From an uncultured Melioribacteraceae bacterium (GTDB taxonomy: Bacteria; Bacteroidota; Ignavibacteria; Ignavibacteriales; Melioribacteraceae): DNA of 64,000 nt. The notes beneath the pieces are model-generated. The model saw only the letters and a list, made by a program, of their open reading frames with translations, had not been told where the DNA came from and made no database searches. Each line of letters begins with the position of its first letter. The stretch's first letter is position 1. The stretch is taken from the NCBI GenBank assembly GCA_965370315.1, contig CBDUTO010000003.1, positions 13,527 to 77,526 on the forward strand, given 5' to 3'. The position numbers and the translations under genes were made by a program. Shown here in pieces: positions 1,255-56,472 of the stretch.

Positions 1255-4200
1255 TTAAAGCCATTCTTCAAGTTTTTTCAATAAAAGTTCTTGATCTATT
1301 GGTTTTGAAATATAATCATCACAACCGGCAACAAGAAAATTATCTTTATCTTCCTTCATTGCGCGAGCAGTTAAAGCAATAACTGGGATGTTTTTTGTCT
1401 CGTCTTTACTTTTTAAAATACCGACTATTTCAACACCATCCATCATAGGAAGAGACATATCAAGCAAAATAATATCTGGTAAATTCTTAATTGCTTTAAT
1501 CAAGCCGCTCTCCCCATCGTAGGCTTTAATAATATTATATTTGTTTTTTAAAATAGCATTTACTGTAACCATGTTATCTTTATTATCTTCAATAACCAAT
1601 ATATCTGAAAGACCTCTTTTGGGTTTTGATCTCTTTTTAGATATCTCAATATTATTTACGGCAGACGTTGCATCCTTATTTGAAGTATTCGTTGCTCGCA
1701 ACTTCTCTACATCCATATTTTTTGTTGTAGATTTTTCAATCTCTTTTCTCTTTAATATACCCCCGACCATATTTTGTATTTTAAAGAGAAGATCGTTTTT
1801 ATCAACGTTTCCTTTATGAATTAATTGCTGAACATTATTGGCACTTAATCGGGATAGATCAGCCTTTGATAAGTCCTTGGCTGTAAGAATTAAAACGGGT
1901 ATTTTTTTATTTTCCTCTCTACTTCTTAATTTTTCAAGTACTTCAAAACCATCAATTTCAGGCATCATCAAATCGAGAATTATTCCATCGGGAATGGTGT
2001 GCTTTATATAATCAAGTGCTTCTTGCCCTCCTCTGGCTACATCTATATCGTAACCTTCTGGAGTTAAAATAGATTTAACTTGAATAATAGCAGATTCATT
2101 ATCTTCCACTAACAATAGACATATTTTTGACTTATCTTTCAGCTTGTGACTCAGATCAGGATTATCTCCCAAATCTTTTAATATCCGTCTTATTTCGTTA
2201 TACAATTGTTGTGGTGCAGCATTACTTTTCGCAACAATTGACGATACTTTTCCATGAAGTCTTATTTTATCATTTCGTGTCAGATCTTTTGCCGTAACAA
2301 TGATAATGGGCAGATCTTTAGTACTTGGGATATTACGAACCTTATTAAGAACTTGAAACCCATCCATTTCTGGCATAACAAGGTCAAGCACAAGAATATC
2401 CGGTATTTGTCTTTTAAGAAGTTGAATACATTTGTTTCCACCTTCTGCCAAAACCGTTAACATCTTTTCCTCTTCCAATATCTCCGCTATTCTTTTCCTG
2501 TCCATTTCATTATCGTCAACAATCATAATAGTTTTAGGATTATCATGCAGTTTATTTATCTCGGAAATAAGATTCTTCCCATCAATCGGTTTATTAACAT
2601 ACCCAACCGCACCCAGTGCAAAACCGGTCTCCTTATCATCGGAAACTGAAACAATAATAACAGGAATATCTTTTGTGCTCTCATTAGCCTTCATTTTTTG
2701 GAGAACTTCCCAACCATCCATATCGGGCATAATAACATCCAGTGTTATTGCATATGGTTGATGTTTTTTCGCTAACTCTAACACCTTACTTCCAAATGTA
2801 GTTCCAATAGTATCATAACCTTCTTTTTCCAAAGCGTTTGAAATATAGCTTACCATTTCCGGATTATCATCAACCACTAAAATAGTTTTCTTTAGGGATT
2901 TTGGAATTATCGGTTGAACCATTACAGTTTCAGTGGAATAAACTTCACTTTGCCATTCGATGGGAAAAGTAATAGTGAATTTACTTCCACTACCATACTT
3001 GCTTATAGCTTTGATATCTCCGTCTAGAATTTTAATTAATTTGTAAACTATAGCTAATCCTAATCCAGTACCTTCGTACTGCTTGGATGATGAACCATCC
3101 ACTTGTCTAAATTCATCAAAAACAAATTGGAGATCATCCTCACTAATACCTATTCCAGAATCTTCTACTTCTATGTAAACCTTTTCAGAATCAGCGAAAG
3201 CATTGATATTTACTTCCCCCTCTTCTGTAAACTTTATTGCATTTCCGATTATGTTAGAGAAAACTTGCCGCAACTTTGGCAAATCAGTCTCTACTTTAGG
3301 AATAAACCCATTAATATTGAGATTTAATCCTATATCTTTTTCCTGTGCTAGGGAAGATAAATTATCTTTGATTAATCTGAGTTCCGATTCCAGAGAAAAT
3401 TTAGAGGGCGTTAATTCCATCTTACCAGCTTCAATTTTTGAAAGGTCGAGGATATCATTTATCAGACTCAACAATTGTTTCCCGTTACGCTCAACTATTT
3501 CGAGATAACTATTTTCTTCTTCATTAAGTTTGTCAGATGCCCCAATTATTAACACGCGAGAAAGTGCCATAATAGAATTGAGTGGTGTTCGGAGTTCATG
3601 ACTCATGTTGGATAAGAATTCACTCTTTAATTTGTTGGCCAGTTCTACTTCTTTCCGTTGCATATCCAATTCAAGATTCTGCTCTTGCAGTTCTTCCGAA
3701 GTCTGTTGTAATTCTTCTGTTTGGCTTTGTAATTCTTCTGTTTGGCTTTGTAATTCTTCCGACTGTTCCTGCAATTCTTCCGATTTAGTTTCCAACTCCA
3801 TGTTTATTCTTGAAAGGTTTTCTGCCAGTACCATTGTTCGCTCGTTTGCTAGTAAACTCGCGTAAGAAGAATTTAAACTCCACCATGATTGCTCAAGAAT
3901 ATCATAGCTTTCTTTATTGAACTTGATAACATTAACAAGCGAAATAATAGCCAACACAACGTTTTCAACCAATATTGGAATAGTAATAATTTCTTTCGGT
4001 ATTGCATTACCAGCAGAAGTTTGAAATTTAAAAATAGTATCTTCAGGAATATCACGCATATGATAGATGCATTTTTTCGAGAGTGCAATACCAAATTCAC
4101 CTTCAGGATTTTCTGAGTTAAAAGATTTCAGCATTTCTTCATTTGCCCCGATAGATGTGATATGCTCAAACTCGGAGGTTAACTCATTCAAAATATAAAA

Positions 4201-5442
4201 TACGCCCATGTTGCATTGAGTTGTTTCAATCAACTGTTTTAAAATTTCTGAACTAAAATCCTGCATCGAAGTCTGTTCGATCATTATATTAGAAATTTCA
4301 GAAGTACCTTTTTGGATAGTAATTTTAGATTTAATTGATTCGGTCATTTCATTTATAGATTTAGAGAGTGAACCAAGTTCATCTTTAGAATTGATCATAT
4401 TCTTAACAGAATAATCACCTGCTATAATTTTTTTTGTAACATTATCTAATCCTACTATTGGTTTTGATATAGATTTACCGATAAATATTGCAACAAAATA
4501 GATCAATAAAGCAGATAAAACAAATAGAAGCACAAAATTAAATATCATTTCACGAATGGGTTCATTCAATTCGTAAAGATCCTGTTTGCAGACAAAGCCC
4601 CATCTGATTTCGGGGATGTAAGTATATGCAGCTAGAATTTCTTCGCCTCGGTAATCATCAGTAATTTTTATTCCTGTTTTCCCATTTGCTGCATCAACAG
4701 CTGGTTCAGCCTTAATCAGAAGATTAAGTGGGGCATTTTCATGCCAACGGAGTTCGTTCAATGCCATTACATCTTTGTTAACAATTAGTGTCTCACCCGT
4801 TTCACCCAAGCCCACTCTATCATTAAGCATTTTATAGAGTGAGTTATGCAAATCAATACGTGCTACAAGAATACCTATAATATGCTTGCTATGTGTCTTG
4901 CATAAAATTGGTAAAGAGAAGGTCATTTCAGATCTATTAGTTGTATTTGAATAATAGATATCTTTAATAAACATTTCACCTGTTTCTAATGGTTTACTGA
5001 AATATGGGTCTTCAGATTTATTTTCACCTAACTGACTCAAATTTGTTGATATTTCAACCAAACTGGAATTAGCCCCAACAATAAATAATTCAGAATATCT
5101 ACTGTAATTTCTAAAATATCTACTAAGCAGCTCTCTAGCAGCACTTATTTTTTCAAAGTCTTCAGCCGATTTTGATTTCTTTTCAAGAATATTTTCCAAA
5201 CCCCTGAGCTCATTATCTTTCGACATAACATGCATATCCCCCTTAGTTTCTATTAACCATTGATTCAAACGCTCCACTTTCAAGTCACGAATAGCAATAA
5301 TTTTATCGAATGTTCTGGATTCAATAACATTTACACGTTGAATATATGTAACAACTAATGCTAGTAATAATGGCGTTAACGCAATAATTAGGAACCAGAA
5401 AGTTAATCGGTTTTTAATGCTGTTAAATGTTGTTTTTTTCAT
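1255..5442 (-). CDS. Hybrid sensor histidine kinase: TM, Cache-like extracytoplasmic domain, TM, HAMP, GAF, coiled coil, HisKA, HATPase_c, four receiver domains
   Basis: 1395-aa ORF with two hydrophobic segments flanking a ~270-aa domain. H-box FLSNMSHELRTPLNSI; G-boxes EDSGIGI and GTGLGLAIV. Four D-D...D...K receiver units: ILVVDDNPEM..LDVIMPDMDG, IMIVDDNEMD..LDLVMPEMDG, LLLVEDNESA..LDLMMPEIDG, ILVIEDNKDN..LDMSLPMMDG. Confidence 0.9.
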   Translation of the reverse strand: MKKTTFNSIKNRLTFWFLIIALTPLLLALVVTYIQRVNVIESRTFDKIIAIRDLKVERLNQWLIETKGDMHVMSKDNELRGLENILEKKSKSAEDFEKISAARELLSRYFRNYSRYSELFIVGANSSLVEISTNLSQLGENKSEDPYFSKPLETGEMFIKDIYYSNTTNRSEMTFSLPILCKTHSKHIIGILVARIDLHNSLYKMLNDRVGLGETGETLIVNKDVMALNELRWHENAPLNLLIKAEPAVDAANGKTGIKITDDYRGEEILAAYTYIPEIRWGFVCKQDLYELNEPIREMIFNFVLLFVLSALLIYFVAIFIGKSISKPIVGLDNVTKKIIAGDYSVKNMINSKDELGSLSKSINEMTESIKSKITIQKGTSEISNIMIEQTSMQDFSSEILKQLIETTQCNMGVFYILNELTSEFEHITSIGANEEMLKSFNSENPEGEFGIALSKKCIYHMRDIPEDTIFKFQTSAGNAIPKEIITIPILVENVVLAIISLVNVIKFNKESYDILEQSWWSLNSSYASLLANERTMVLAENLSRINMELETKSEELQEQSEELQSQTEELQSQTEELQQTSEELQEQNLELDMQRKEVELANKLKSEFLSNMSHELRTPLNSIMALSRVLIIGASDKLNEEENSYLEIVERNGKQLLSLINDILDLSKIEAGKMELTPSKFSLESELRLIKDNLSSLAQEKDIGLNLNINGFIPKVETDLPKLRQVFSNIIGNAIKFTEEGEVNINAFADSEKVYIEVEDSGIGISEDDLQFVFDEFRQVDGSSSKQYEGTGLGLAIVYKLIKILDGDIKAISKYGSGSKFTITFPIEWQSEVYSTETVMVQPIIPKSLKKTILVVDDNPEMVSYISNALEKEGYDTIGTTFGSKVLELAKKHQPYAITLDVIMPDMDGWEVLQKMKANESTKDIPVIIVSVSDDKETGFALGAVGYVNKPIDGKNLISEINKLHDNPKTIMIVDDNEMDRKRIAEILEEEKMLTVLAEGGNKCIQLLKRQIPDILVLDLVMPEMDGFQVLNKVRNIPSTKDLPIIIVTAKDLTRNDKIRLHGKVSSIVAKSNAAPQQLYNEIRRILKDLGDNPDLSHKLKDKSKICLLLVEDNESAIIQVKSILTPEGYDIDVARGGQEALDYIKHTIPDGIILDLMMPEIDGFEVLEKLRSREENKKIPVLILTAKDLSKADLSRLSANNVQQLIHKGNVDKNDLLFKIQNMVGGILKRKEIEKSTTKNMDVEKLRATNTSNKDATSAVNNIEISKKRSKPKRGLSDILVIEDNKDNMVTVNAILKNKYNIIKAYDGESGLIKAIKNLPDIILLDMSLPMMDGVEIVGILKSKDETKNIPVIALTARAMKEDKDNFLVAGCDDYISKPIDQELLLKKLEEWL
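3687..3791. repeat. Five tandem 21-bp units, in frame inside the hybrid kinase coiled coil
   Basis: Units start at 3687, 3708, 3729, 3750 and 3771. Units 2 and 3 (gtaattcttctgtttggcttt) are identical. They encode the heptads SEELQEQ/SEELQSQ/TEELQSQ/TEELQQT/SEELQEQ. Confidence 0.85.
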
Positions 5443-17972: not shown

Positions 17973-20333
17973 TTAAAAATTAATTTTAAATTTCATTCCA
18001 ATAACAATAGGCTCTTTTACAAATCCGCTCTGTCTGGGATATTGGCGGAGATTCCCCGGTTCCCAATATTGTATAACATAACGCACATTATTTACGCTTA
18101 TAATATTCATTGCAAATAATGATAACTCCATATTGAATGATTCAGAATCCACTTTCCAATTAACTGAAATATTTGACGTAAATGAATTTTCTCCATATCC
18201 GTGATCGTGTAAAGCATTGTATATCGCATTCATTTCATCTTTCGATTCCTGAGCTCCATAATTATCATGAACATCTTTAAAATTCATTAATAGATCTTCT
18301 TGTTGATAATCAAGACTCATTCTACAATCGAGATGAAGATTTAGATTATAGGGTAATTTTTGATTATAATAAAATTTGATAGAATGTACCGGCAGATTGT
18401 TAATTCTATTTTGTCCATAATCAGAAATATATATTTTATCAATATTTTCTGATCCTGTAGCAAGATTCACATCGACATATGCTTCTAGTTCAACTTCAGG
18501 TGTCCAGTTCAATTGATTGATAAATGAATAGCTTCCACTAAAATTGAAATTAGTATTTGTGTATTTAATTTCAGCATCGAATCCTGCTAATTTAAAAGTA
18601 CCAACTAATCCGGATTGATTTGTTGGAAGCCATGCAATCTGATCTATTGTATTATAATATCCAGAAAAATTAAAATTTAGATTTTTATTTTGCATTCTTC
18701 CATAAATAACTTCAAATCCCCTTAAAATCTCAGGGTCAGAAGAAGTTCCTGAAATGATATACTCTGAATACAAGTCACGAAATGTAGGAAGTCTTACAGA
18801 TTGTTGATAAATGACTTTAATTACATTTTTCTTGTTTAATTTATAGATCCAAGCTAAGCGGGGAGAAATTGCCCATTTTGAATATTTGTGTTTATCTGCT
18901 CGCCCAGAAATTAAGATTGTATTTTTGTCCGTAACATCAATATTTGCTTCAAAAAACCCTGACACAAAATTTGTCCTTAGTTGATCTTCAATCAGGCTGC
19001 AAAAATTACTTCCATATTGTTGATAAAATCCAGATGTAGTATCATAAACAGCAAATCTTATTGGAGCCTGGAACCCCAGAATAAAAGAATTGTCATCCAT
19101 TCCCCACTCTGGACCATAACTTTTATATACATATTCTCCACCTACTGCAAATCTATACTTTTCATTAAGATCAAAATTAAGCTGACTTTTTACAAACAAA
19201 TCACTTTCGGAAAATGAGTTGTTTCGTTGAGTAATATGATCAGATGGTTTATTAGTGCCCTGATAAAATGAAATATCCCTATGACTCTGTGACGAATATC
19301 CAAGTGAAGATTTGAGAGTTACAAATTGAGAGAAATGATGCTTGTTTTCAAAAACAGCAGTGAACTGTTTGTATAATAAGCCTGGAAAATCAGACCCATC
19401 GGCCGTTTCACTCTTTTGCTGTTGCTTAGTAAAATTAGATGATGTATATCTTGTCCAGAGACGAAATTCATTAAAAAACTCAACATCTAGTTGAAGTTTA
19501 ATTTCAGGTTTATCCCAATAATTTTCATAGAAGTTAGGAGCAGGAGTGCCGAGTCCCTTATTTCCCCATTCCGGAGACATAAAACCATAGCCATAACCAT
19601 GTGCCCTGTCAACATAGAAAAATTTTGGATTTTTTTGCCCTTTTGATAATGTGTAACTTCCTCGGATGAAAGCCTTAACATTCTCTGTATTATATCCATA
19701 GCTTGCACTTCCAATTCCATATCTATATCCCAAATTCCACTCCGTTGAGATAGTAAGCCCTTCAGAAGAGACGGCATTTTTTGTTTTAATATTTATGACA
19801 CCTCCAATTGCACCGGGACCATATGTTACCGATCCAGGACCACGGATTATTTCAATTGTTTCAATATCACCTAAATCTTTATTCAGCATTTCTGTTAATG
19901 GCTGCCCCATATATGCATCATTCATTCTTACACCATTTACAATAAGCATGTATGAAGAATTCATATCTCCAGATACTCCTCTAATGCCTATTCTTGGACC
20001 CAGCCAATGATTTACAAAAGTTGCAGAGGGCACATAAATTTCAATTAGATCAAACAGGTTTCTCGCCGAACTTACTGCAATATCTTCTTTTGTGATTACT
20101 GTAAATGAGACAGGGATATCAGAACGCTTCATTTCTGTAATAGTACCTGTAAAAACTTTAACTTCCATTAATTCTTCGAGAGACATATTAAAAAGTTTAT
20201 TGTATTTTTTCTCCTTTGTATCTTGAGCAATTATATGAATTGATTGTAACAAAAGAAAAACAACAAACAATAAAACAGGCATTCTTTCCAATACAGACAA
20301 AAGCAATTTTGATTTGTTTTGATTATTATTCAT
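17973..20333 (-). CDS. TonB-dependent outer-membrane receptor
   Basis: 786 aa. Signal peptide, MSLEELMEVKVFTG lead-in, plug (FTVITKEDIAVSSARNLFDLIEIYVP, NGVRMND, IETIEIIRGPGSVTYGPGAIGGVINIKTK), barrel ending ...KFKINF. A GGTGG Shine-Dalgarno-like sequence lies upstream of the ATG. Confidence 0.85.
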   Translation of the reverse strand: MNNNQNKSKLLLSVLERMPVLLFVVFLLLQSIHIIAQDTKEKKYNKLFNMSLEELMEVKVFTGTITEMKRSDIPVSFTVITKEDIAVSSARNLFDLIEIYVPSATFVNHWLGPRIGIRGVSGDMNSSYMLIVNGVRMNDAYMGQPLTEMLNKDLGDIETIEIIRGPGSVTYGPGAIGGVINIKTKNAVSSEGLTISTEWNLGYRYGIGSASYGYNTENVKAFIRGSYTLSKGQKNPKFFYVDRAHGYGYGFMSPEWGNKGLGTPAPNFYENYWDKPEIKLQLDVEFFNEFRLWTRYTSSNFTKQQQKSETADGSDFPGLLYKQFTAVFENKHHFSQFVTLKSSLGYSSQSHRDISFYQGTNKPSDHITQRNNSFSESDLFVKSQLNFDLNEKYRFAVGGEYVYKSYGPEWGMDDNSFILGFQAPIRFAVYDTTSGFYQQYGSNFCSLIEDQLRTNFVSGFFEANIDVTDKNTILISGRADKHKYSKWAISPRLAWIYKLNKKNVIKVIYQQSVRLPTFRDLYSEYIISGTSSDPEILRGFEVIYGRMQNKNLNFNFSGYYNTIDQIAWLPTNQSGLVGTFKLAGFDAEIKYTNTNFNFSGSYSFINQLNWTPEVELEAYVDVNLATGSENIDKIYISDYGQNRINNLPVHSIKFYYNQKLPYNLNLHLDCRMSLDYQQEDLLMNFKDVHDNYGAQESKDEMNAIYNALHDHGYGENSFTSNISVNWKVDSESFNMELSLFAMNIISVNNVRYVIQYWEPGNLRQYPRQSGFVKEPIVIGMKFKINF

Positions 20334-20490
20334 TTTTTACCACCTTAAATATTTCAGGTTTTACAGAACTGAACAAAAGGCATTTCAATTAAAACGTCAG
20401 CTTTCAAAGCTTGTATTCAGACTGCTATTACGAGAATAGATTCAGTTTTCTCATTTTTTCTGATTATGCCAAAAATTTCTTCTACTCGAT

Positions 20491-21663
20491 CTAATTAAAC
20501 TCATACTCAACTTTATTAAGTTTATACTTTTCTGGTTGTTTATAAATATCTAAGATCAAATTGCGATCAAAACTTTTTCTTACCTCTTCCCATTTGCTAC
20601 TTCCAGGTACTTTGTTTAATTCTTTTAGAAATCTGAATTCTTTATAGAGCAAACTATTAATTTGCGTATCATCTTCACTTGAAATAATAGAGTACTTTGA
20701 ATTATATCTGAGAATATCCTTCAGTGCCAAGTCGGCAATTTCTGCCGCAGTTAATATGCTTTTTTCTCCGCTCAACCTTTCAATTTCTATTAAATTAAAA
20801 TCAGATGCGGCAAGCAAATTAATTCTATCAGCTTTTAACCAGTTAATTGCTCTGATAACAGCAGCAAGAATATGATTAACAACCTCATAATTTTTAGCTG
20901 CAAATTCTTTTAAAAAATATAAATATCCAGTGGATATTCTTTTAAACGTTATAAAATTTTTTGGATAGAGTTTTTGAGATGAAGCCACAATTGGTTCCCA
21001 TGCAGAGAAGAGGTCAATCTCATTATTATGTAATGCATTTGCCATAGATGTAACATCAAGGGGAATTAAACTCACATCGTTTTCTTTAATTCCTTCACCT
21101 TGCAATAAATCTAAAAGAAAATAATGTGATATCGATCCTAAAGGATACCCAATTCGCTTCCCCTCCAAATCATTTGTTAGCATCGGCTTTCTTGAAACAA
21201 TAGAAACATTACCCTTCTGTAAGAGTACTGGAATTAGAATATCAAAATTTGAGGATGCGGATAATGCAGGCATATCCCCACCAACACCGGCAACCAGTTC
21301 TTTTTGTTTCAGAAAACAATTAAGATCTGCACCTTTTAAATATGGAAAATATGCGATTCTCTTTCCTAATAGTCTCAGTTCTTGCTTTAGAATTTTATCC
21401 CGTTTTATAACTTCAAAGATAATTCCGGTAGGTAAGTATAGAGGTTGGAAACCAATATTTATTGTTGAGTCATTATTATAAATGTATTGGGAATAAATAG
21501 GATGATTTTGTATATCCGGTTGTTGAATTAGAGAACTCACTTCCGTTTTATCATTCACTGATAAAAAAAAGACCATTGCTGTAGTTCCAATCACAATAAG
21601 TAATAGAACAATGTTTCTAATTTTAATTTTGGGAAGAAGCAATTTATTATTGTTAAAAATCAT
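20491..21663 (-). CDS. Membrane-anchored periplasmic-binding-protein-like protein (NMT1/SsuA-TauA-type fold suspected)
   Basis: 390 aa with an N-terminal TM (IVLLLIVIGTTAMVFFLSV). The body has the typical two-lobe binding-protein pattern (IGFQPLYLPTG..., GDMPALSAS, LEGKRIGYPLGSISHYFLLDLL, IDLFSAWEPIVAS). The family assignment is tentative. Confidence 0.5.
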   Translation of the reverse strand: MIFNNNKLLLPKIKIRNIVLLLIVIGTTAMVFFLSVNDKTEVSSLIQQPDIQNHPIYSQYIYNNDSTINIGFQPLYLPTGIIFEVIKRDKILKQELRLLGKRIAYFPYLKGADLNCFLKQKELVAGVGGDMPALSASSNFDILIPVLLQKGNVSIVSRKPMLTNDLEGKRIGYPLGSISHYFLLDLLQGEGIKENDVSLIPLDVTSMANALHNNEIDLFSAWEPIVASSQKLYPKNFITFKRISTGYLYFLKEFAAKNYEVVNHILAAVIRAINWLKADRINLLAASDFNLIEIERLSGEKSILTAAEIADLALKDILRYNSKYSIISSEDDTQINSLLYKEFRFLKELNKVPGSSKWEEVRKSFDRNLILDIYKQPEKYKLNKVEYEFN

Positions 21664-21701
21664 GTTTCCTCTATATTCTCAAATTTATTTATCTAAATCA
21701 A

Positions 21702-22526
21702 TCACCTTTTCTTATAAATCTTACACTCTTTATTAGTTCTATTAAATTTATTCTTATATTTTTCAGGTAGCTCTTCTGCTTCGCCTAAAACTAGATACCC
21801 ACCTGGATTTAATGCACGGTACAATTTTTTATATATAATTTCTTGAAACTCGGTATTGAAATAAATTAATAGATTACGACAGAGAATAATATCAAAGCTG
21901 CCATATATGCTTTCAGGAGGAAAATACGATTTTGTATCGAGCATATCAAACTCTGAAAAACTGACCATCTCCTTTATTTCAGATTTCAATTGAAACACAT
22001 TTACTCTTGTATTAAAATATTTTTCTAATAAGTGGTATTTTATACTCTTAATACTTTCAAAAGAATAGATACCTTCTGCTGCTGATTTTAGTGTTTTCTT
22101 ATCAATATCCGTTGCAATTATTGTTGTAATTAAATTCAAGCCTTCCTTTTTAATTATTTCATTTATAAGAATCGCTATAGAATATGGTTCTTCTCCAGCA
22201 GCACAACCTGCTGACCAAACACGCAAGGGAGAATTATTTGATTTAATTTTTTCTATGATCAACTTTGGTAATATATAATCAGCAATAAATTCAAAATTGA
22301 ATGTATTTCTAAAAAACCTGCTCACATTTATTGTAAGTACATCAATTAGCTTATCTAGCTCCAATTCGTTTTGTTCAAGATACTTGTGGTACTCATTTAT
22401 ATCTGAAGAAATAGTTGCAAAAATTCTTTTATCAATACGTCTATTAATCATGGCAGTGCGGTTCCCAGAAAAATCAAGTCCACGTTTTAATTTAAGATAT
22501 TGTAATATGTTAGTTGCATTAGTCAT
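21702..22526 (-). CDS. cheR: CheR-type protein-glutamate O-methyltransferase
   Basis: 274 aa. CheR_N-like segment (LDFSGNRTAMINRRIDKRI..., INVSRFFRN). SAM-binding core LRVWSAGCAAGEEPYSIAILI, ATDID, FDIILCRNLLIYFN. Confidence 0.85.
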   Translation of the reverse strand: MTNATNILQYLKLKRGLDFSGNRTAMINRRIDKRIFATISSDINEYHKYLEQNELELDKLIDVLTINVSRFFRNTFNFEFIADYILPKLIIEKIKSNNSPLRVWSAGCAAGEEPYSIAILINEIIKKEGLNLITTIIATDIDKKTLKSAAEGIYSFESIKSIKYHLLEKYFNTRVNVFQLKSEIKEMVSFSEFDMLDTKSYFPPESIYGSFDIILCRNLLIYFNTEFQEIIYKKLYRALNPGGYLVLGEAEELPEKYKNKFNRTNKECKIYKKR

Positions 22527-22571
22527 ATAAATCAGTTAGATATTGATGCCAAATTATTTTTCACTTACTCC

Positions 22572-24368
22572 TCACTCTGGAACATTATATTTGGGATGTT
22601 CATTTTGATTGTCTAATAAATTATTTATCTCATTTTTTAATTCTATCATTCTATTTTCTCTATTTACAAAGAATTTATTCATTTTATCTAACTCACTAAT
22701 TTTTTCTTTTAGTTTTTCAATTGCATTATGGCGTTCTGTGATATTACGTCTATTCACAACGAATCCCATAATTTTGTTATTAAATCCGTAATATGGATAA
22801 TAGGTAGTCTCCATATAGCACCGTCCCTTAGCTGGAAAATCAAACCACCCTTGATAGTTGATTTGGTCACCAGATATACAACGCTCACCATTATTCTTGA
22901 TAGTAGAATTAAAGAATTCTTCTCCAAAAACATTAGCCACAGTATTTCCAATCAACTCTTCACGAGTCAATTTGAATGCCTCCATATATGCTTTATTTAC
23001 TGCAAGATATCTGAATTGTTTATCCAAAAGCGCAAGCATATCGTTAGAGCTAGATACAATATACTCATATTGACATAGTACTTCTTCCGATTCTTTATAC
23101 TCTGTAATATCAATAATATTTCCAACAACTTTATGTAGTTTACCATCTTTATAAATGGGTCGGCCTGAGGTACGGACCCACATTTGTTTCTTTTTAGCAT
23201 TAGTAAATCTTAGTTCTAAATTATATGGGATCCCTTTACTCACACACTCTTCAAATGCTTTGGTAATAGTTGGAATATCATCTTTATGATAATATTTGAA
23301 TCCATCTTGGGCATCTTTAATAGGTGATTTGGGCAGGGCATGAATACGATAAGTTTCACCAGTCCAAATTATTTGTCCATTGGAAATTCTATATTCCCAT
23401 CCACCAACTCTAGATAGTTTTTGAGTCTCATTTAGCAAATATTCACTCTTTCTAAGTGCTTTTTGATCTAAAACATGTTCAGTAATATCACGGTTATTTC
23501 CTCTTCTTCCCACCCAACCATCACTCTTATCATTCACTAGACTACAGTGATGTGCTATCCATTTTTCTTCGCCAGAGCGTGTTATGATAGGAAATTCTGT
23601 CTTAAAGATTGGATCCTTCCAATTCCTTTCATTTTTGTAATGGCTAGTAACTTCCTCCCTAAAATCCTTTCTTATTATTTTAAAAAATAACTCAGGTTTT
23701 TTTTTGAATTCTTCAACTGTGTATCCGGTGATTCTCTCTACGGATGGAGATATGTATAAATACTCTCCAGTAGGACTAATCAAGTATTCCCAATCATGAG
23801 TATACTCAGCTAACAGTTTGTATTTTTGTTTGCTCGCTTTTAACTCTTGTTCCATTTTCTTACGATTTGTAATATCTTGAAACACACAATAGATTTTTTC
23901 GACACTCCCGTCCGGATAATAGCCGATAGATCCTTCAAATGAGATATCCAAATCACTTCCATCTTTGTGCTTTATCTTAAAAAGTATATCAGATACATAA
24001 CCACGTTTTTTAAATTCTAGGAAGTGTTTTTCGAAATGAGGTTTCCAATCTGGATGTAAAAGATCTACAAACCGCTTTCCAATAACCTCCTCACGATTGT
24101 AACCAAGCGTTCTTATCCATGCTGGGTTTATTTCAATCAAACAACCATCGACATTGAGAGATTGATAGGACAAAGGCGCATTATTGAATAGTGCTGATAA
24201 TTTCTCTTTGCTTTCTTCTAAAACATCGGATATTTTTTTTTGTTTATTTAATTTAGAATTCAACAAATGGTTGTTCTTTTCCAAATCAGATATTATACTT
24301 TTTAAATTATTATTTTCGTTTTGAAGGAAGAAGAACCCTGGATTAGCCTCTTTCATATTGTGCTCCAT
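22572..24368 (-). CDS. Multi-PAS sensor protein (about four PAS domains), no output domain
   Basis: 598 aa. N-terminal coiled coil, repeated PAS/PAC units (LSALFNNAPLSYQSL..., ..DITNRKKMEQEL.., ..DITEHVLDQKAL.., ..DITEYKESEE.., ..NITERHNAIEKL..), C-terminal coiled coil. No H-box or other output motif seen. Confidence 0.8.
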   Translation of the reverse strand: MEHNMKEANPGFFFLQNENNNLKSIISDLEKNNHLLNSKLNKQKKISDVLEESKEKLSALFNNAPLSYQSLNVDGCLIEINPAWIRTLGYNREEVIGKRFVDLLHPDWKPHFEKHFLEFKKRGYVSDILFKIKHKDGSDLDISFEGSIGYYPDGSVEKIYCVFQDITNRKKMEQELKASKQKYKLLAEYTHDWEYLISPTGEYLYISPSVERITGYTVEEFKKKPELFFKIIRKDFREEVTSHYKNERNWKDPIFKTEFPIITRSGEEKWIAHHCSLVNDKSDGWVGRRGNNRDITEHVLDQKALRKSEYLLNETQKLSRVGGWEYRISNGQIIWTGETYRIHALPKSPIKDAQDGFKYYHKDDIPTITKAFEECVSKGIPYNLELRFTNAKKKQMWVRTSGRPIYKDGKLHKVVGNIIDITEYKESEEVLCQYEYIVSSSNDMLALLDKQFRYLAVNKAYMEAFKLTREELIGNTVANVFGEEFFNSTIKNNGERCISGDQINYQGWFDFPAKGRCYMETTYYPYYGFNNKIMGFVVNRRNITERHNAIEKLKEKISELDKMNKFFVNRENRMIELKNEINNLLDNQNEHPKYNVPE

Positions 24369-24473
24369 TTGTTATGCTACTAAGTATTGCAGAACTAGGA
24401 AGTATACATTGATACTTAATATAATAGTTACATGTTACAATGTAAAGAGAAAGCGGTTCTTGAGAGAAACAGC

Positions 24474-24799
24474 TGCCACTCTTTATTTGCTCATCCACAA
24501 AAAGAAACCATCAAACTCCATTAATTACTGCATTAATATTTCATAGTTTTACTTTATCCTAAAACAAACTATTTCCCAAAAAATGATAGAATCAATCATC
24601 ACCTTTGTATTGAGTCTTTGCAAATCAAGAACTCAGCTAGGATTAGAAAAAATGGTTTTAAGAAAATTTGTTTTAAATGTCATTCCCATCAAAATAATTC
24701 TAAATCCAAGTCGATATTCTTAACTGAGGAACAACTTAATTAAAACTCAGTAGAGATCTTTGTTGTAATTCAACACTTATGAGGTTTTGGATAGGGACA
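24474..24799 (+). mobile_element. MITE-like internal-deletion derivative (326 bp) of the IS at 54886-56220
   Basis: The left end tgccactctttatttgctcatccaca aligns with the IS left end tgtccctgttcatttgctcatccaca. It keeps ~30 degenerate transposase N-terminal codons (MIESIITFVLSLCKSRTQL...). It joins directly to a right end ...gtagagatctttgttgtaattcaacacttatgaggttttggatagggaca. Confidence 0.65.
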
Positions 24800-24918
24800 A
24801 CTTATTATCAAATAAGATTAGTTTAAATAGTTATATTCACATAGCATCATTATAGAATAAGAAATATTTAATTATAGTATACTAATTAATATTGACAACT
24901 TAAAAACTTTGTGGACTT

Positions 24919-26088
24919 ATGTTAAACATTGCATTATTTGGCCCTCCCGGAGCCGGGAAAGGAACACAGTCAGAATTCCTTTTAAAAATATTTAATCTCT
25001 TTTACATTTCAACTGGTGATTCTTTACGTAAAGAAATAGCCGAAAAAACTAAATTAGGCTTGGAAGCACAAAGCATTATTGCATCCGGAGGGTTGGTTTC
25101 TGATGAAATTATTGTTCAGATTATAGAAAAAACTATTACAGATAATCCAAATGCCAACGGATTTTTATTTGATGGATTTCCCCGCACATATGTTCAGGCG
25201 TATATTCTAGAAGGTTTAATGATAAAATTAAATACTTCGCTTAATTGTTTGATCAACATTAATGTTGATGAGGAAGAATCTGTTTCTCGTCTTTTGAACA
25301 GAGGAAAATCTTCCGGACGTTCTGATGATAATGAAACTGTGATTAGAAATCGACTTGTTGAATATAATGTAAAAACTCGTCCAGTAATGCAGTTTTACAA
25401 AGACAGAAAAGTATATTTTGAAGTTGAAGGTTACGACTCAATTGAAAATGTACATAGAAGGATAATAAATATTTTACAGGACGAACTCAGTAAATCACTT
25501 TATAATATTGTTCTTTTCGGTTATCCTGGCTGCGGGCGGGGTTCGCAGGGTCAAGCACTTGCTGAAAAATTTGATCTTGAATATATTGCCACTGGCAAAA
25601 TGCTTGAAGATGAAATTAAAGATAATACCGAAGTTGGGATGAAAATATTAGAACTATATGAAAATGGTCAACTTGTGCCCGATGAAATTGTTGTACAATT
25701 GATTGAGAAAAAACTTGCGAACTCAAAAGGTGTTAAGGGGTATATTTTCAAGGGCTTTCCGAGAACTCTTGTACAATCTTACATATTAGACGGGCTTTTA
25801 AAAAAGCATGGTTCTAAAATATCAAAGGTAATAGAGTTTGAAGTCCCAATACTTGAACTTATCAATAGGCTTGATGCACGGAGCAAGACTGATAAATGTA
25901 TGCCATACGATAGCAATACTGCTAAAATTGTTAAGCGTCTACAGGAACATGAAAATAAAACCATTCCAGTAATTGAAAAATATGAACAGCTGCATGATTT
26001 TAAAAAAATTGACGGCATGGGTACATTCGAAGAAGTATTTGAAAGAACTGTAGTTGATATTGAAAACGGGATGAAACATATGAGATAA
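24919..26088 (+). CDS. adk: Fused tandem adenylate kinase (two short-LID adenylate-kinase domains in one 389-aa protein)
   Basis: Domain 1: FGPPGAGKGTQ, ISTGDSLRKEI, DGFPRT, NRGKSSGRSDDNETVIRNRL. Domain 2: FGYPGCGRGSQ, IATGKMLEDEI, KGFPRT, LDARSKTDKCMPYDSN. Confidence 0.85.
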   Translation: MLNIALFGPPGAGKGTQSEFLLKIFNLFYISTGDSLRKEIAEKTKLGLEAQSIIASGGLVSDEIIVQIIEKTITDNPNANGFLFDGFPRTYVQAYILEGLMIKLNTSLNCLININVDEEESVSRLLNRGKSSGRSDDNETVIRNRLVEYNVKTRPVMQFYKDRKVYFEVEGYDSIENVHRRIINILQDELSKSLYNIVLFGYPGCGRGSQGQALAEKFDLEYIATGKMLEDEIKDNTEVGMKILELYENGQLVPDEIVVQLIEKKLANSKGVKGYIFKGFPRTLVQSYILDGLLKKHGSKISKVIEFEVPILELINRLDARSKTDKCMPYDSNTAKIVKRLQEHENKTIPVIEKYEQLHDFKKIDGMGTFEEVFERTVVDIENGMKHMR

Positions 26089-26149
26089 ATATAAACTTAC
26101 CCACAAGTTCATTGGGCTGAATAATCGAAATAAATGAGGCAATTTCCAT

Positions 26150-26249
26150 CCAAATTAGACTGAACATTCTTCATTGAGGAGCAACTATATTAAAACTAAG
26201 TAGAGATTTTTGTTGATATTCAACACGGATGAGGTTTTGGACAGGGACA
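26150..26249 (+). mobile_element. Solo right-end fragment (~100 bp) of the same IS
   Basis: caaattagactgaacattc...aaaactaagtagagatttttgttgatattcaacacggatgaggttttggacagggaca aligns with 56120-56220 of the intact copy. Confidence 0.6.
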
Positions 26250-26341
26250 GCTACCCACTCTTTTTTGAGCCTTTTTTACAAAATCCACCAATGGCTGTTT
26301 GATTCTAGTTACTTTGTTTTTCTTAATTCTATTTCTCACAC

Positions 26342-29340: not shown

Positions 29341-30041
29341 TGTGCATGTTCATTTGCTCATCCGAATAAAAAACTAACGAATTATACTTTTTACTACAAT
29401 GAGATTTCATAATTTTACTTCATTCTAAACAAACTATTATCAAATATGATTAAATCACTCTTCACCTTTCTTCTCAACCTATTCAAATCAAGAACTCAAC
29501 TACAATTTCGGAAAGTATTTTGAGAAGAAAATTTCTGATATTGGTATTAAAGAAATTATTACTGCTTATAGATCTCCTTGGCAAAACGGATATGTTGAAA
29601 GAGTGATTGGGACGATTAGAAGAGAATGCCTTGATCACTTCATAGTTTTCAACGAAGCCCATCTCAGAGAAATTCTTAAAGAATATTTTTATTACTACAA
29701 TAAATTTCGAACACATTTGGGGTTGGATAAAGATACTCCGAAAAGGAGACCAATAGAATCAATTGGAAAAATAGCTAATATTCCTATTCTAAATGGTCTA
29801 CATAATATTTATTTCAGAGAAGCTGTTTAAGTTATAGAAAAGACAAACTAAATTTTCAAGTCAGTCCATTTTAGGCTAGTGTATTACTAGATCTGCTTTT
29901 AAGAATAATCGCAATAATTGATAATTTCCTATCAGATTAATATAAATCTACCGAACCATTCTAAACAAAATAACAAGTTTATTAAAATTATGTAAAGATA
30001 ATGAGTGAAATCATATGCAGATGAAGTTTTGGATAGTCACA
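29341..30041 (+). mobile_element. Internally deleted copy (701 bp) of the IS at 54886-56220
   Basis: Left end tgtgcatgttcatttgctcatcc. The transposase start continues to about codon 20, then jumps (junction ~29507) to the equivalent of ~55682. The C-terminal 75 codons are identical in protein to the intact copy. The right end ...gaagttttggatagtcaca is diverged. Confidence 0.8.
29446..29830 (+). pseudogene. Transposase pseudogene (about 610 bp deleted, frame broken)
   Basis: The ATG at 29446 gives MIKSLFTFLLNLFKSRTQLQFRKVF then a stop. ORF 29603-29830 equals the last 75 aa of the 54993-56006 transposase. Confidence 0.85.
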
Positions 30042-32028: not shown

Positions 32029-32115
32029 TGTCCCTATTCATCTGCTCATCCGCATAGAAAACTAACTTGAGATTCTTGTTGATATTCAGCACGGACGAGG
32101 TTTTGGATAGGGACA
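32029..32115 (+). mobile_element. 87-bp mini-MITE: the two ends of the IS481-like element joined
   Basis: tgtccctattcatctgctcatccgcatagaaaactaac is joined to ttgagattcttgttgatattcagcacggacgaggttttggatagggaca. It abuts, and apparently truncates, the IS256 relic. Confidence 0.6.
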
Positions 32116-32215
32116 ACGTCAGATAGGTCCGTTTACAGCGTCTACAGCGGTAGTTTAAAAACCAAAAAGCCCGAAAACGGCTCTTTCATGCTGTAAACGG
32201 GCTTTTAAAATAGTA

Positions 32216-54730: not shown

Positions 54731-54885
54731 TTCACCATCAAAATATTGAGAATAATTTGGAATAACACATTATTGTATATATGTATGGTTGTCTATACAA
54801 CTACACAAAGTTACACATATATTTTTAATTGTCAAACTAATTATGTTTTTAAATTATAGCTATACAGTGTTGGAGTGTGAAGGCC

Positions 54886-56220
54886 TGTCCCTGTTCATTT
54901 GCTCATCCACATCTAAAAACTAACAAATTCCACTTATTTCCACAATAGGATTTCATATTTTTACACCATCCTAAACAAACCATTACTCAAAAATGATTAA
55001 ATCTCTCTTTGCTTTCATTCTCAATCTTTTCAAATCAAAAACACAACTACAATTAGAAAATATATTCCTCAGAAAACAATTGGAAATAGTTAGCAGATCG
55101 AATAAAAGATCTGTAATAAAACGAAGTGATAGAGTTTTCTTCAGCTTATCAAAAGGATTACTTAATAATTGGAAAGAAAATCTTGTAATTGTAAAACCAG
55201 AGACTGTTATTAAATGGCATAGACAAGGGTTCAAACTATTCTGGAAAATGAAAAGTAAACACAAAGGTGGAAGAGAAAGAGTAGATGCTGAGACTAGAAA
55301 GTTAATCATTCAAATAGCTAAAGAGAATAGCTCATGGGGTATTCCTAGAATACATGGTGAAATAGTAAAGCTTGGATACAACATTTCTCAATCAACTGTT
55401 TTTAGATATCTGCAAAACTTAAGAAGAAGGAAGCCTTCTCAGAACTGGAAAACATTTTTAAGGAATCACTCCAAAGAAACTATCTCAATGGATCTCTTCG
55501 CTGTACCAACTTCTAATTTTAAGTTATTACATGTGCTAGTAATGATTGAGCATCATAGAAGAAAAATAATTCATTTCAATGTTACTGAACATCCAACTTC
55601 TATTTGGACAGCTCAACAAATGAGAAATGCTCTTTATGAAGAGAACTCCTATAAGTATGTGATTAGAGATAGAGATTGTAAATTCGGGAAGTATTTTGGT
55701 AGGAAGATTTCTGATATTGGTATTAAAGAAATTGTTACTGCTTATAGATCTCCTTGGCAAAACGGATATGTTGAAAGAGTGATTGGGACGATTAGAAGAG
55801 AATGCCTTGATCACTTCATAGTTTTCAACGAAGCCCATCTCAGAGAAATTCTTAAAGAATATTTTTATTACTACAATAAATTTCGAACACATTTGGGGTT
55901 GGATAAAGATACTCCGAAAAGGAGACCAATAGAATCAATTGGAAAAATAGCTAATATTCCTATTCTTAATGGTCTACATAATATTTATTTCAGAGAAGCT
56001 GTTTAAGTTTTTATGAAGGACAAAACAACTTCACAATGAGAAGGTCTTTAAGACCAGTGCATTTCCATATCTATTTTTAGTGAAAATCAAAATAATTAGA
56101 CAATATCAAACCAAACAAATCTGAATTAGACCGAACATTCAAAACTAAGAAGCAACAATATTAATACTAAGTAGAGATTCTTGCAGAAATTCAGAACAGA
56201 TTAGGTTTTGGATAGGGACA
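54886..56220 (+). mobile_element. Intact IS481-like insertion sequence (1335 bp)
   Basis: Terminal inverted repeats tgtccctgttca... and ...tggatagggaca bracket a single 337-aa DDE (rve) transposase gene. I see no target-site duplication at these boundaries. Confidence 0.8.
54993..56006 (+). CDS. IS481-family-like DDE transposase (integrase core / rve domain)
   Basis: 337 aa. N-terminal HTH region with ...VIVKPETVIKWHRQGFKLFWKMKSK. Catalytic core ISMDLFAVP...VIRDRDCKFG...SPWQNGYVERVIGTIRRECLDH. Confidence 0.9.
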   Translation: MIKSLFAFILNLFKSKTQLQLENIFLRKQLEIVSRSNKRSVIKRSDRVFFSLSKGLLNNWKENLVIVKPETVIKWHRQGFKLFWKMKSKHKGGRERVDAETRKLIIQIAKENSSWGIPRIHGEIVKLGYNISQSTVFRYLQNLRRRKPSQNWKTFLRNHSKETISMDLFAVPTSNFKLLHVLVMIEHHRRKIIHFNVTEHPTSIWTAQQMRNALYEENSYKYVIRDRDCKFGKYFGRKISDIGIKEIVTAYRSPWQNGYVERVIGTIRRECLDHFIVFNEAHLREILKEYFYYYNKFRTHLGLDKDTPKRRPIESIGKIANIPILNGLHNIYFREAV

Positions 56221-56472
56221 ACTGTAATACTCATTAATGTTAATGCAATTCCGCGTAGTATTCTGGAAGGACGTTTTCTGTTTTCAACTTGGTTTGCCAT
56301 AATTTCTACTTGTTATTGCTAAGTTAATAAAATGGAGCACTTTTGGGGGGCAGTTCAATAGTTAAATCATAATTATCTTCAACCTAATTTCATAAATGGG
56401 AAACTAAATTAATGGTCAACAATAAATTTAACATTTAAGATATTGTATAATAGAATTCAATCGCAATGTAGA

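What the first reader, a model, noticed from the sequence alone, without database searches (positions are those of the whole stretch)
24919..26088. Fused double adenylate kinase whose second half has lost key catalytic residues
Seen: one 389-aa ORF holds two colinear adenylate-kinase units with short LIDs. Unit 1 keeps the canonical residues: P-loop GPPGAGKGT, NMP-site TGDSLR, LID GRSDDN and following Arg. Unit 2 has P-loop GYPGCGRGS (Walker lysine to Arg), TGKMLE (AMP-phosphate Arg to Glu) and a LID reading ARSKTDKCMPYDSN without the GRxDD arginines, yet it keeps GFPRT. Established: those Lys/Arg residues are required for phosphoryl transfer in adenylate kinases. Inference: unit 2 is a pseudo-kinase, acting as a regulatory or nucleotide-binding module, or it has a changed specificity. 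The gene also lies away from the usual ribosomal-protein/secY context and is bracketed by IS remnants.
Basis: partly seen in the sequence, partly recalled or inferred. Interest (0 to 1): 0.6.

Follow-up and report, generated by a model that had tools for sequence, protein, structure and literature searches.

The report
Tandem adenylate kinase with pseudo-kinase half
This gene encodes a normal adenylate kinase fused to a second, well-conserved copy that has lost five catalytic residues; it is a horizontally spread extra gene found in several bacterial phyla, and the searchable literature has no study of it.

Summary
ORF 24919..26088 (+) encodes 389 aa with two short-LID adenylate-kinase (ADK) domains that are 38% identical.

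- **Unit 1** has every catalytic residue.
- **Unit 2** has K13R, R36E, D84K, R156M and D158Y (E. coli numbering). It keeps R88, Q92, R119, R123, D159 and R167.
- **Family pattern:** in 54 tandem homologues, unit 1 has the full catalytic set in 54 of 54 and unit 2 in 0 of 54. Different lineages lost different residues.
- **Selection:** unit 2 is not decaying. dN/dS is about 0.07-0.09 in both units.
- **Origin:** a unit tree shows one duplication and fusion. The less degenerate "type B" form sits in the Bacteroidales housekeeping locus hpt-adk-obg, and is sometimes the only ADK hit in the genome.
- **This window's form ("type A"):** it is a derived clade with the signature GYPGxGRGS and RSKTxxCMPYD. 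It always accompanied another ADK in the genomes checked.
- **Spread:** type A is patchy among Ignavibacteria. It also occurs in records labelled Verrucomicrobiota, Spirochaetota and Acidobacteriota at host-matched GC content.
- **Local context:** the gene is flanked by IS remnants. The genome has its own zinc-lid adk elsewhere.

Best reading: an active kinase fused to a non-catalytic domain that probably still binds adenine nucleotides. What that domain does is inferred, not shown.

The parts
24919..26088 (+). Tandem adenylate kinase gene (389 aa, type A)
   Evidence: Open frame. Two PF00406 matches. There are thousands of 389-aa homologues at 76-94% identity.
24919..25494 (+). Unit 1 (aa 1-192): canonical short-LID adenylate kinase
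   Evidence: NF001381 scores 209 bits, above its cut-off of 187. K14, R37, D85, R89, R124, R128, R134, D136, D137 and R145 are all present here and in all 54 homologues.
25495..26085 (+). Unit 2 (aa 193-389): ADK fold lacking five catalytic residues
   Evidence: NF001381 scores 173 bits, below its cut-off of 187. Changed residues are R207 (K13), E230 (R36), K278 (D84), M328 (R156) and Y330 (D158). Kept residues are R282, Q286, R317, R321, D331 and R340. dN/dS is 0.07-0.08.
25519..25545 (+). Unit-2 P-loop GYPGCGRGS, with Arg in place of the Walker-A Lys
   Evidence: Codon 207 is CGG, Arg. GYPGxGRGS is invariant in 115 close homologues. It is also present in type A copies from other phyla.
25879..25920 (+). 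Unit-2 LID loop RSKTDKCMPYDSNT, the type A signature
   Evidence: RSKTxxCMPYD is almost invariant in 115 homologues. Met sits at the R156 position and Tyr at the D158 position.
24473..24805 (+). Internally deleted IS copy upstream of the gene (5' part 24473-24669, 3' end 24716-24805)
   Evidence: It matches other IS copies in the same genome at 71-85% identity. The alignment to the 3' end of the full IS copy is.
26166..26255 (+). Solo IS 3'-end remnant downstream, a direct repeat of 24716-24805
   Evidence: 85% identity over 87 nt, E = 2.4e-21. Alignment A2.
54885..56223 (+). Full-length copy of the same IS (337-aa transposase at 54993..56006), used as the reference for the remnants
   Evidence: Pfam finds rve_3 and HTH_32 in the transposase.

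Best explanation
The gene encodes an accessory, horizontally acquired tandem adenylate kinase.

**Unit 1** is a fully equipped short-LID adenylate kinase. It most likely carries out ATP + AMP = 2 ADP.

**Unit 2** is a paralogous ADK fold that arose once, by tandem duplication and fusion at the Bacteroidales hpt-adk-obg locus. In this 'type A' lineage it has lost:
- the P-loop lysine;
- the AMP-phosphate arginine;
- the Mg2+-anchoring aspartate;
- the LID arginine R156;
- R156's partner D158.

It keeps the P-loop glycines and the residues that hold both adenine nucleotides (T31, R88, Q92, R119, R123, R167).

Most likely unit 2 no longer transfers phosphate. Instead it binds an adenine nucleotide, probably without Mg2+, and acts as a built-in sensing, regulatory or stabilising partner of unit 1.

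Shown here:
- the two-domain architecture;
- which residues are lost and which are kept;
- the single origin;
- the repeated independent losses;
- the strong purifying selection;
- the accessory status and patchy distribution;
- the IS-flanked context.

Inferred, not shown:
- the loss of catalysis;
- retained nucleotide binding;
- any regulatory coupling between the units.
For: - **Architecture.** Two ADK domains. AlphaFold2 folds both halves as ADK, mean pLDDT 86.7. The best structural matches are adenylate kinases.
- **Residues.** Unit 1 has the complete catalytic set in 54 of 54 tandem proteins and unit 2 in 0 of 54. In unit 2, Q92, R119, R123 and R167 are present in 54 of 54. Tyr at the D158 position is present in 52 of 54, and Lys at D84 in 48 of 54.
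- **Published effects in E. coli Adk.** R88A, R123A, R156K and R167A leave under 1% of activity, R36A leaves 17%, and K13Q hits both kcat and KM (PMC8297476). D158 hydrogen-bonds R156 and stabilises the closed state (PMC10778088).
- **Single origin.** The unit-1 clade (support 98) and the unit-2 clade (99) are sisters (97).
- **Repeated losses.** Catalytic residues were lost several times independently within unit 2.
- **Selection.** dN/dS is 0.07-0.09 in both units. Amino-acid identity stays at 67-79% while third-codon-position GC ranges from 0.22 to 0.95 across hosts.
- **Unit 1 is probably a working enzyme.** The sister type B tandem occupies hpt-adk-obg and is the only ADK hit in three genomes.
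- **Accessory status.** This genome has a separate 216-aa zinc-lid adk. Core type A always co-occurred with another ADK in the genomes checked.
- **Horizontal transfer.** The gene is present in 3 of 7 genomes of the genus and about 6 of 41 relatives. A congener shares only the gene plus about 50 bp on each side. IS remnants flank it.
Against: - No enzyme or binding data exist for any member.
- Arg can still bind phosphate in a P-loop, and Lys278 at the Walker-B position could conceivably replace Mg2+. A slow or unconventional phosphotransfer is therefore not excluded.
- AlphaFold's pTM of 0.64 gives no confident arrangement of the two domains.
- There is no conserved gene neighbourhood to hint at a pathway.
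Confidence: 0.65

Rival explanations
1. Unit 2 is still a catalyst, with an altered mechanism or substrate. For example, it could be a Mg2+-independent or Lys278-assisted phosphotransferase, or a kinase for another nucleotide. The protein would then be a bifunctional two-enzyme fusion, like human AK5 and AK8.
For: - Purifying selection on unit 2 is very strong, and its odd motifs are nearly invariant.
- The P-loop glycine scaffold and R88, R123 and R167 are retained.
- There is precedent for two active AK domains in one chain, AK5 and AK8 (PMC10056885).
Against: - Five residues are replaced together. Mutating K13, R36 or R156 alone cuts E. coli Adk activity. D158 holds R156 in place, and D84 is the Mg2+ anchor.
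- Across the family different catalytic residues are lost in different lineages, and none keeps the full set. A conserved new chemistry would be expected to fix one solution.
- Q92, the adenine-selecting residue of the NMP site, is invariant. This argues against a new base specificity.
Confidence: 0.15
2. Unit 2 has no ligand of its own. It is a structural partner, an intramolecular pseudo-dimer that stabilises unit 1 or tunes its dynamics, or a docking surface for another protein. MAGUK guanylate-kinase domains became protein-binding modules in this way.
For: - Catalytic residues are lost while the fold is kept.
- Short-loop ('lidless') ADKs are on average slow enzymes (PMC11526920), so a fused helper domain could matter.
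- The linker between the units is very short.
- Both units carry a conserved Y-I-L-[ED]-G-L helix that the Labilibaculum single-domain adk aligned beside them lacks.
Against: Invariance of Q92, R119, R123 and R167, and of the P-loop glycines, in unit 2 is hard to explain without a bound nucleotide. No partner gene co-occurs in the neighbourhood.
Confidence: 0.15
3. The gene is a decaying duplicate, a passenger of IS activity with no function in this genome.
For: It is flanked by IS remnants, patchy in the genus, and the genome has another adk.
Against: - The frame is intact.
- dN/dS is 0.07-0.09 against congeners and family members.
- It is 93% identical to the copy in a congener that sits in a different context.
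- The signature motifs are invariant across phyla.
Confidence: 0.03

Closest known systems
Bacterial short-LID ('lidless') adenylate kinase (Pfam PF00406, NCBIfam NF001381; e.g. the single-domain adk in the Bacteroidales hpt-adk-obg locus, and M. tuberculosis Adk, PDB 2cdn)
   Same: Both units have this fold and length. Unit 1 has every catalytic residue. The tandem units are nested within the sampled single-domain short ADKs on the unit tree.
   Different: - The protein has two units in one chain.
- Unit 2 lacks K13, R36, D84, R156 and D158.
- The gene is an accessory, mobile paralogue rather than the housekeeping adk.
'Type B' Bacteroidales tandem adenylate kinase (e.g. Labilibaculum antarcticum second copy, L009; about 50% identical)
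   Same: It has the same fusion of common origin, the same 388-390 aa length, a canonical unit 1, and unit 2 with D84K and D158Y.
   Different: - Type B keeps K13, R36 and R156 in unit 2.
- It sits in hpt-adk-obg and can be the only ADK hit in a genome.
- Type A, this window's form, has lost those residues, sits outside the housekeeping locus wherever its context was examined, and always accompanied another ADK in the genomes checked.
Eukaryotic two-domain adenylate kinases AK5 and AK8
   Same: Two complete AK folds in one polypeptide. Foldseek's top two hits are chains of the bovine sperm axoneme.
   Different: - AK5 and AK8 are reported to have two active domains (PMC10056885).
- Here the second domain lacks five catalytic residues.
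- The origin looks independent, because the two bacterial units are each other's closest relatives.
MAGUK guanylate-kinase-like domains (an NMP-kinase fold turned into a non-catalytic binding module)
   Same: An NMP-kinase fold is retained under selection after loss of catalysis. This rests on my own knowledge. PMC2859873 was listed but I did not read it.
   Different: MAGUK domains derive from guanylate kinase, are eukaryotic, bind phosphopeptides, and are not fused to an active paralogue. This is an analogy only.

Membership tests
Adenylate kinase (PF00406, EC 2.7.4.3): unit 1 | Profile match above the curated cut-off | tested here: met
   NF001381 scores 209 bits, above the cut-off of 187. 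The PF00406 match covers aa 6-164.
Adenylate kinase (PF00406, EC 2.7.4.3): unit 1 | P-loop GxxGxGK[ST], catalytic R36, R88, R123, R156, R167, Mg2+ Asp84, and D158/D159 | tested here: met
   All are present here and in 54 of 54 homologues.
Adenylate kinase (PF00406, EC 2.7.4.3): unit 1 | ATP:AMP phosphotransferase activity | not testable with these tools
   Indirect evidence only. The sister type B tandem is the only ADK hit in three genomes and sits in the housekeeping locus.
Adenylate kinase (PF00406, EC 2.7.4.3): unit 2 | ADK fold and profile match | tested here: met
   PF00406 scores 134 bits in the genome search. NF001381 scores 173 bits, below its equivalog cut-off of 187. AlphaFold2 gives an ADK-like secondary-structure order.
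Adenylate kinase (PF00406, EC 2.7.4.3): unit 2 | Walker-A lysine (K13) | tested here: not met
   Arg207, codon CGG. Arg is invariant in 115 close homologues.
Adenylate kinase (PF00406, EC 2.7.4.3): unit 2 | Full set of catalytic arginines and Mg2+-anchoring Asp84 | tested here: not met
   R36 is Glu, R156 is Met, D84 is Lys and D158 is Tyr. R88, R123 and R167 are kept.
Two-active-domain adenylate kinases (AK5/AK8 type) | Both AK domains catalytically complete | tested here: not met
   Unit 2 lacks five catalytic residues. AK5 and AK8 are described as having two complete and active domains.
Composite transposon or IS-mobilised cargo | Two intact IS copies flanking the cargo, with target-site duplications | tested here: not met
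   Only a deleted copy (24473-24805) and a solo 3' end (26166-26255) flank the gene. I did not look for target-site duplications. The context is consistent with past IS activity but is not a current transposon.
Anti-phage defence proteins (PADLOC) | Significant match to a defence-system model | tested here: not met
   Only weak P-loop-level hits, VakA at 23.5 bits and IetA at 17.2 bits, with no stretch passing on its own.

The most novel reading that the evidence does not exclude
Type A tandem ADK is a mobile 'smart' adenylate kinase. Unit 2 would be a Mg2+-free sensor of adenylate energy charge, or of a related signal such as a dinucleoside polyphosphate or an alarmone. It would allosterically gate the catalytic unit 1. 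This would be a bacterial NMP-kinase/pseudo-kinase pair comparable in logic to the JAK pseudokinase-kinase tandems. Because it benefits energy-limited bacteria, it would have been kept at 67-79% amino-acid identity while moving between at least four or five phyla.
Probability: 0.25. Interest if true: 0.7.

Novelty: new variant of a known kind. Interest (0 to 1): 0.5.

Why it matters
Adenylate kinase is a textbook model for enzyme dynamics and for cellular energy homeostasis. This family is a natural experiment in which one ADK fold stays catalytic while its fused twin is released from catalysis yet remains under strong constraint.

The graded series (type B, intermediates, type A) shows the order in which catalytic residues were given up. 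D158Y came first. D84K or loss of R88 followed. K13R, loss of R36 and R156M came last.

If unit 2 proves to be a nucleotide sensor or regulator, it would be a new kind of built-in control for a housekeeping enzyme. It would also be a bacterial example of the pseudoenzyme-plus-enzyme tandem.

The family is annotated simply as 'adenylate kinase' in public records, which hides both the paralogy and the dead domain. Its spread across phyla at high sequence conservation suggests a selectable benefit worth identifying.

Tried and rejected
- **Riboswitch or leader RNA** in the 550-bp upstream gap: no Rfam match at E <= 1. The gap is instead filled by an IS remnant.
- **Conserved gene neighbourhood for type A:** none. 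Five loci have unrelated neighbours.
- **Defence-system membership:** only weak P-loop hits in PADLOC.
- **Empty-site test in congeners:** not possible, because the flanking PAS gene has no orthologue in them.
- **Literature on bacterial tandem, fused or double adenylate kinases:** 0 papers in the searchable library. A broader search gave nothing relevant.
- **Promoter and terminator scan:** no more sites than in shuffled sequence, so uninformative.
- **Redox-switch idea** for Cys205 and Cys326: rejected. Neither Cys is invariant in type A.
- **Mis-binning as the explanation for the other-phylum copies:** rejected. Gene GC and third-position GC track the flanking DNA, with third-position GC from 0.22 to 0.95.

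Full report
**1. The observation**

ORF 24919..26088 (+) is open for 389 codons. Pfam ADK (PF00406) matches twice. Each half alone matches the short-LID adenylate-kinase model NF001381. Unit 1 scores 209 bits, above the 187-bit cut-off, and unit 2 scores 173 bits, just below it. The halves are 38% identical over 183 residues, E = 7e-42.

**2. Residue-level anatomy**

I aligned both units with E. coli Adk, using a sequence checked as identical to PDB 1ake.

- Unit 1 has K13, R36, D84, R88, R119, R123, R156, D158, D159 and R167.
- Unit 2 has Arg207 for K13, Glu230 for R36, Lys278 for D84 (the Mg2+ anchor), Met328 for R156 and Tyr330 for D158.
- Unit 2 keeps T31, R88, Q92, R119, R123, D159 and R167.

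Published work on E. coli Adk gives the weight of these residues:
- R88A, R123A, R156K and R167A leave under 1% of activity, R36A leaves 17%, and K13Q affects both kcat and KM (PMC8297476).
- D158 makes a bidentate hydrogen bond to R156 and stabilises the closed state (PMC10778088).

AlphaFold2, run on an alignment of 25 homologues, folds both halves as ADK. Mean pLDDT is 86.7. pTM is only 0.64, so the mutual orientation of the domains is not settled. Foldseek finds adenylate kinases and multi-AK chains of the sperm axoneme.

**3. The family**

A word-indexed search returned thousands of 389-aa proteins at 76-94% identity. They are named after Melioribacteraceae, Bacteroidales, Lentimicrobium and Labilibaculum. 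In 115 of them the odd unit-2 motifs GYPGxGRGS and RSKTxxCMPYD are practically invariant.

Sampling of genomes gave these frequencies:
- 47 of 201 genomes of the GTDB order Bacteroidales carry a tandem ADK.
- 4 of 301 genomes drawn evenly across the phyla's full breadth carry one.

I collected 54 full-length tandem proteins:
- Unit 1 has the complete catalytic set in 54 of 54, and unit 2 in 0 of 54.
- In unit 2, Q92, R119, R123 and R167 are invariant.
- Tyr replaces D158 in 52 of 54.
- Lys replaces D84 in 48 of 54.
- The four that keep D84 have lost R88 (GFPSN, GFPLN, GFPIN, GFPVN).

A maximum-likelihood tree of the separate units, with 18 single-domain short ADKs and two long-LID outgroups, gives a clear picture:
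- All unit 2 sequences form one clade (support 99).
- All unit 1 sequences form one clade, with one stray single-domain row (support 98).
- The two clades are sisters (support 97).

The fusion therefore arose once, from a short-LID adk. On that tree, unit 2 needs at least 4 changes at K13, 9 at R36, 5 at R88, 8 at R156 and 2 at D84. Unit 1 needs none.

Unit 2 falls into subfamilies:
- a basal group that keeps D84 but lacks R88;
- a D84N pair;
- 'type B', with signature K-R-K-R-R-Y-D at positions K13, R36, D84, R88, R156, D158, D159;
- 'type A', mostly R-[ED]-K-R-M-Y-D, a 19-row clade with support 98 to which the window protein belongs.

D158Y is thus the oldest change. The type A losses K13R, loss of R36 and R156M are the most recent.

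**4. Selection**

Nei-Gojobori estimates for pairs that are not saturated give dN/dS of 0.04-0.09 for unit 1 and 0.07-0.08 for unit 2. Mean root-to-tip length is 1.15 for unit 2 against 0.94 for unit 1. Unit 2 is therefore constrained about as strongly as the catalytic unit.

**5. Origin and genomic role**

In Bacteroidales the single-domain adk lies between hpt and obg (Labilibaculum).

Type B tandem genes sit in exactly that place, in the order purE-hpt-[tandem adk]-obg:
- In G487, G528 and G344 the tandem is the only ADK hit in the genome.
- In G412 and G440 the order is hpt-tandem-single adk-obg, which puts three ADK units in a row.

This supports an origin by local duplication. It also argues that unit 1 is a working housekeeping enzyme.

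Type A behaves differently:
- Labilibaculum antarcticum has a single adk in hpt-adk-obg, a type B copy and a type A copy at unrelated loci.
- Every genome with a core type A gene that I checked has at least one other ADK.
- The window's own genome has a 216-aa zinc-lid adk (CxxC...CxxC) on another contig.

**6. Horizontal transfer**

- Among 41 relatives, tandem genes occur in only about six genomes: three of seven in the genus, one fragmented copy in the family, and one genome in the order that carries two copies.
- The congener G006 shares only window 24864..26123 at 88% nucleotide identity. Its flanks are unrelated.
- Type A proteins at 62-79% identity, with the same signature, occur in records labelled Opitutaceae/Verrucomicrobiota, Spirochaetota, Acidobacteriota/Vicinamibacteria and Ignavibacteria. 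Many are on contigs of 88-122 kb.
- More divergent tandems occur in Fermentibacteraceae, Krumholzibacteriota, Fibrobacteraceae and Myxococcales.
- Gene GC follows flank GC in each case, with third-position GC from 0.22 to 0.95. These are resident genes rather than binning errors. The protein has stayed conserved through complete synonymous turnover.

**7. Local context**

A full IS copy lies at window 54885-56223. Its 337-aa transposase (54993..56006) has HTH_32 and rve_3 domains.

Upstream of the adk gene is an internally deleted copy, made of a 5' part at 24473-24669 and a 3' end at 24716-24805. Downstream is a solo 3' end at 26166-26255, in direct orientation and 85% identical to the upstream one. 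The block shared with the congener lies inside these two ends.

It fits acquisition or relocation through IS activity, but this is not an intact composite transposon.

There is no Rfam match in or around the gene, no conserved neighbours, and no meaningful PADLOC match.

**8. Interpretation**

The combination of findings fits a pseudoenzyme domain that still binds adenine nucleotide and is fused to its active paralogue:
- a catalytic set that is never complete in unit 2;
- different residues lost in different lineages;
- nucleotide-holding residues and P-loop glycines that stay invariant;
- dN/dS below 0.1.

Whether unit 2 regulates, senses or merely stabilises cannot be decided from sequence. 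The rivals are:
- residual or novel catalysis, possibly with Lys278 standing in for Mg2+;
- a ligand-free scaffold.

Neither is excluded, and both are scored below the best explanation.

**9. Comparison and novelty**

- Closest relatives are the Bacteroidales type B tandem and the single short-LID adk.
- AK5 and AK8 share the two-domain plan, but both of their domains are reported active, and they are of independent origin.
- Degenerate GxxGxGR P-loops also turn up in eukaryotic multi-ADK proteins, and other bacterial tandems exist. Domain degeneration in multi-ADK chains is therefore recurrent.
- No paper on bacterial tandem ADKs was found.
- Earlier notes of this scan on other genomes reached the same general reading. 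I treat those as leads only.

I rate this a new variant of a known kind, of moderate interest.

Noticed in passing
window 54885-56223; remnants at 24473-24805, 26166-26255, 29349-30037 and 32058-32117: One IS family (337-aa transposase with HTH_32 and rve_3 domains) has a full copy and several deleted or solo-end remnants within 32 kb of this window. More copies lie on contigs C197, C17 and C137. The region looks like a hotspot of IS activity.
   Followed up: partly
L085 (G412:C1) 2905-4657 and L088 (G440:C17) 2500-4633: In two Bacteroidales genomes the housekeeping locus reads hpt - tandem adk - single adk - obg. That is three ADK units in a row, an apparent snapshot of the duplication that produced the fusion.
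   Followed up: partly
P0222 (378 aa) and P0246 (382 aa): Hpt-Adk fusion proteins. P0222 has a hypoxanthine phosphoribosyltransferase N-terminal half joined to a canonical short ADK. P0246 matched ADK only over its C-terminal half and was not read. A 377-aa frame in G466 and a 338-aa frame in G330 may be the same kind.
   Followed up: no
P0174 (401 aa) and P0186 (438 aa): Apparently separate bacterial tandem ADKs. P0174 is arginine- and alanine-rich and both of its units look canonical. In P0186 the N-terminal unit is the degenerate one (GPACAGKST, GFPMT), and it is fused to a zinc-lid ADK.
   Followed up: no
P0134, P0140, P0142, P0147, P0160: Long multi-ADK proteins (about 900-1500 aa, probably eukaryotic flagellar proteins) also contain ADK-like domains with Arg in place of the P-loop Lys (GxxGSGRGx). 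This is a convergent degeneration.
   Followed up: no
L113 (Fibrobacteraceae MAG) and L115/L134 (Myxococcales MAGs): Divergent tandem ADKs outside Bacteroidota have further unit-2 variants. The Fibrobacteraceae copy has Cys in place of the P-loop Lys (GYPGAGCG).
   Followed up: no
window 17973-24368 (- strand): Upstream cluster on the minus strand: a TonB-dependent-receptor-like protein, a 390-aa protein I did not identify, a CheR methyltransferase, and a 598-aa protein made only of PAS domains with no recognisable output domain. The PAS gene has no orthologue in six congeners.
   Followed up: no
P0177 (202 aa): An apparently stand-alone type B-like unit 2 (GKPGSGKGT, FKGFPRT, RSKTERARPYD). 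It could be a real single-domain descendant or a truncated gene call.
   Followed up: no
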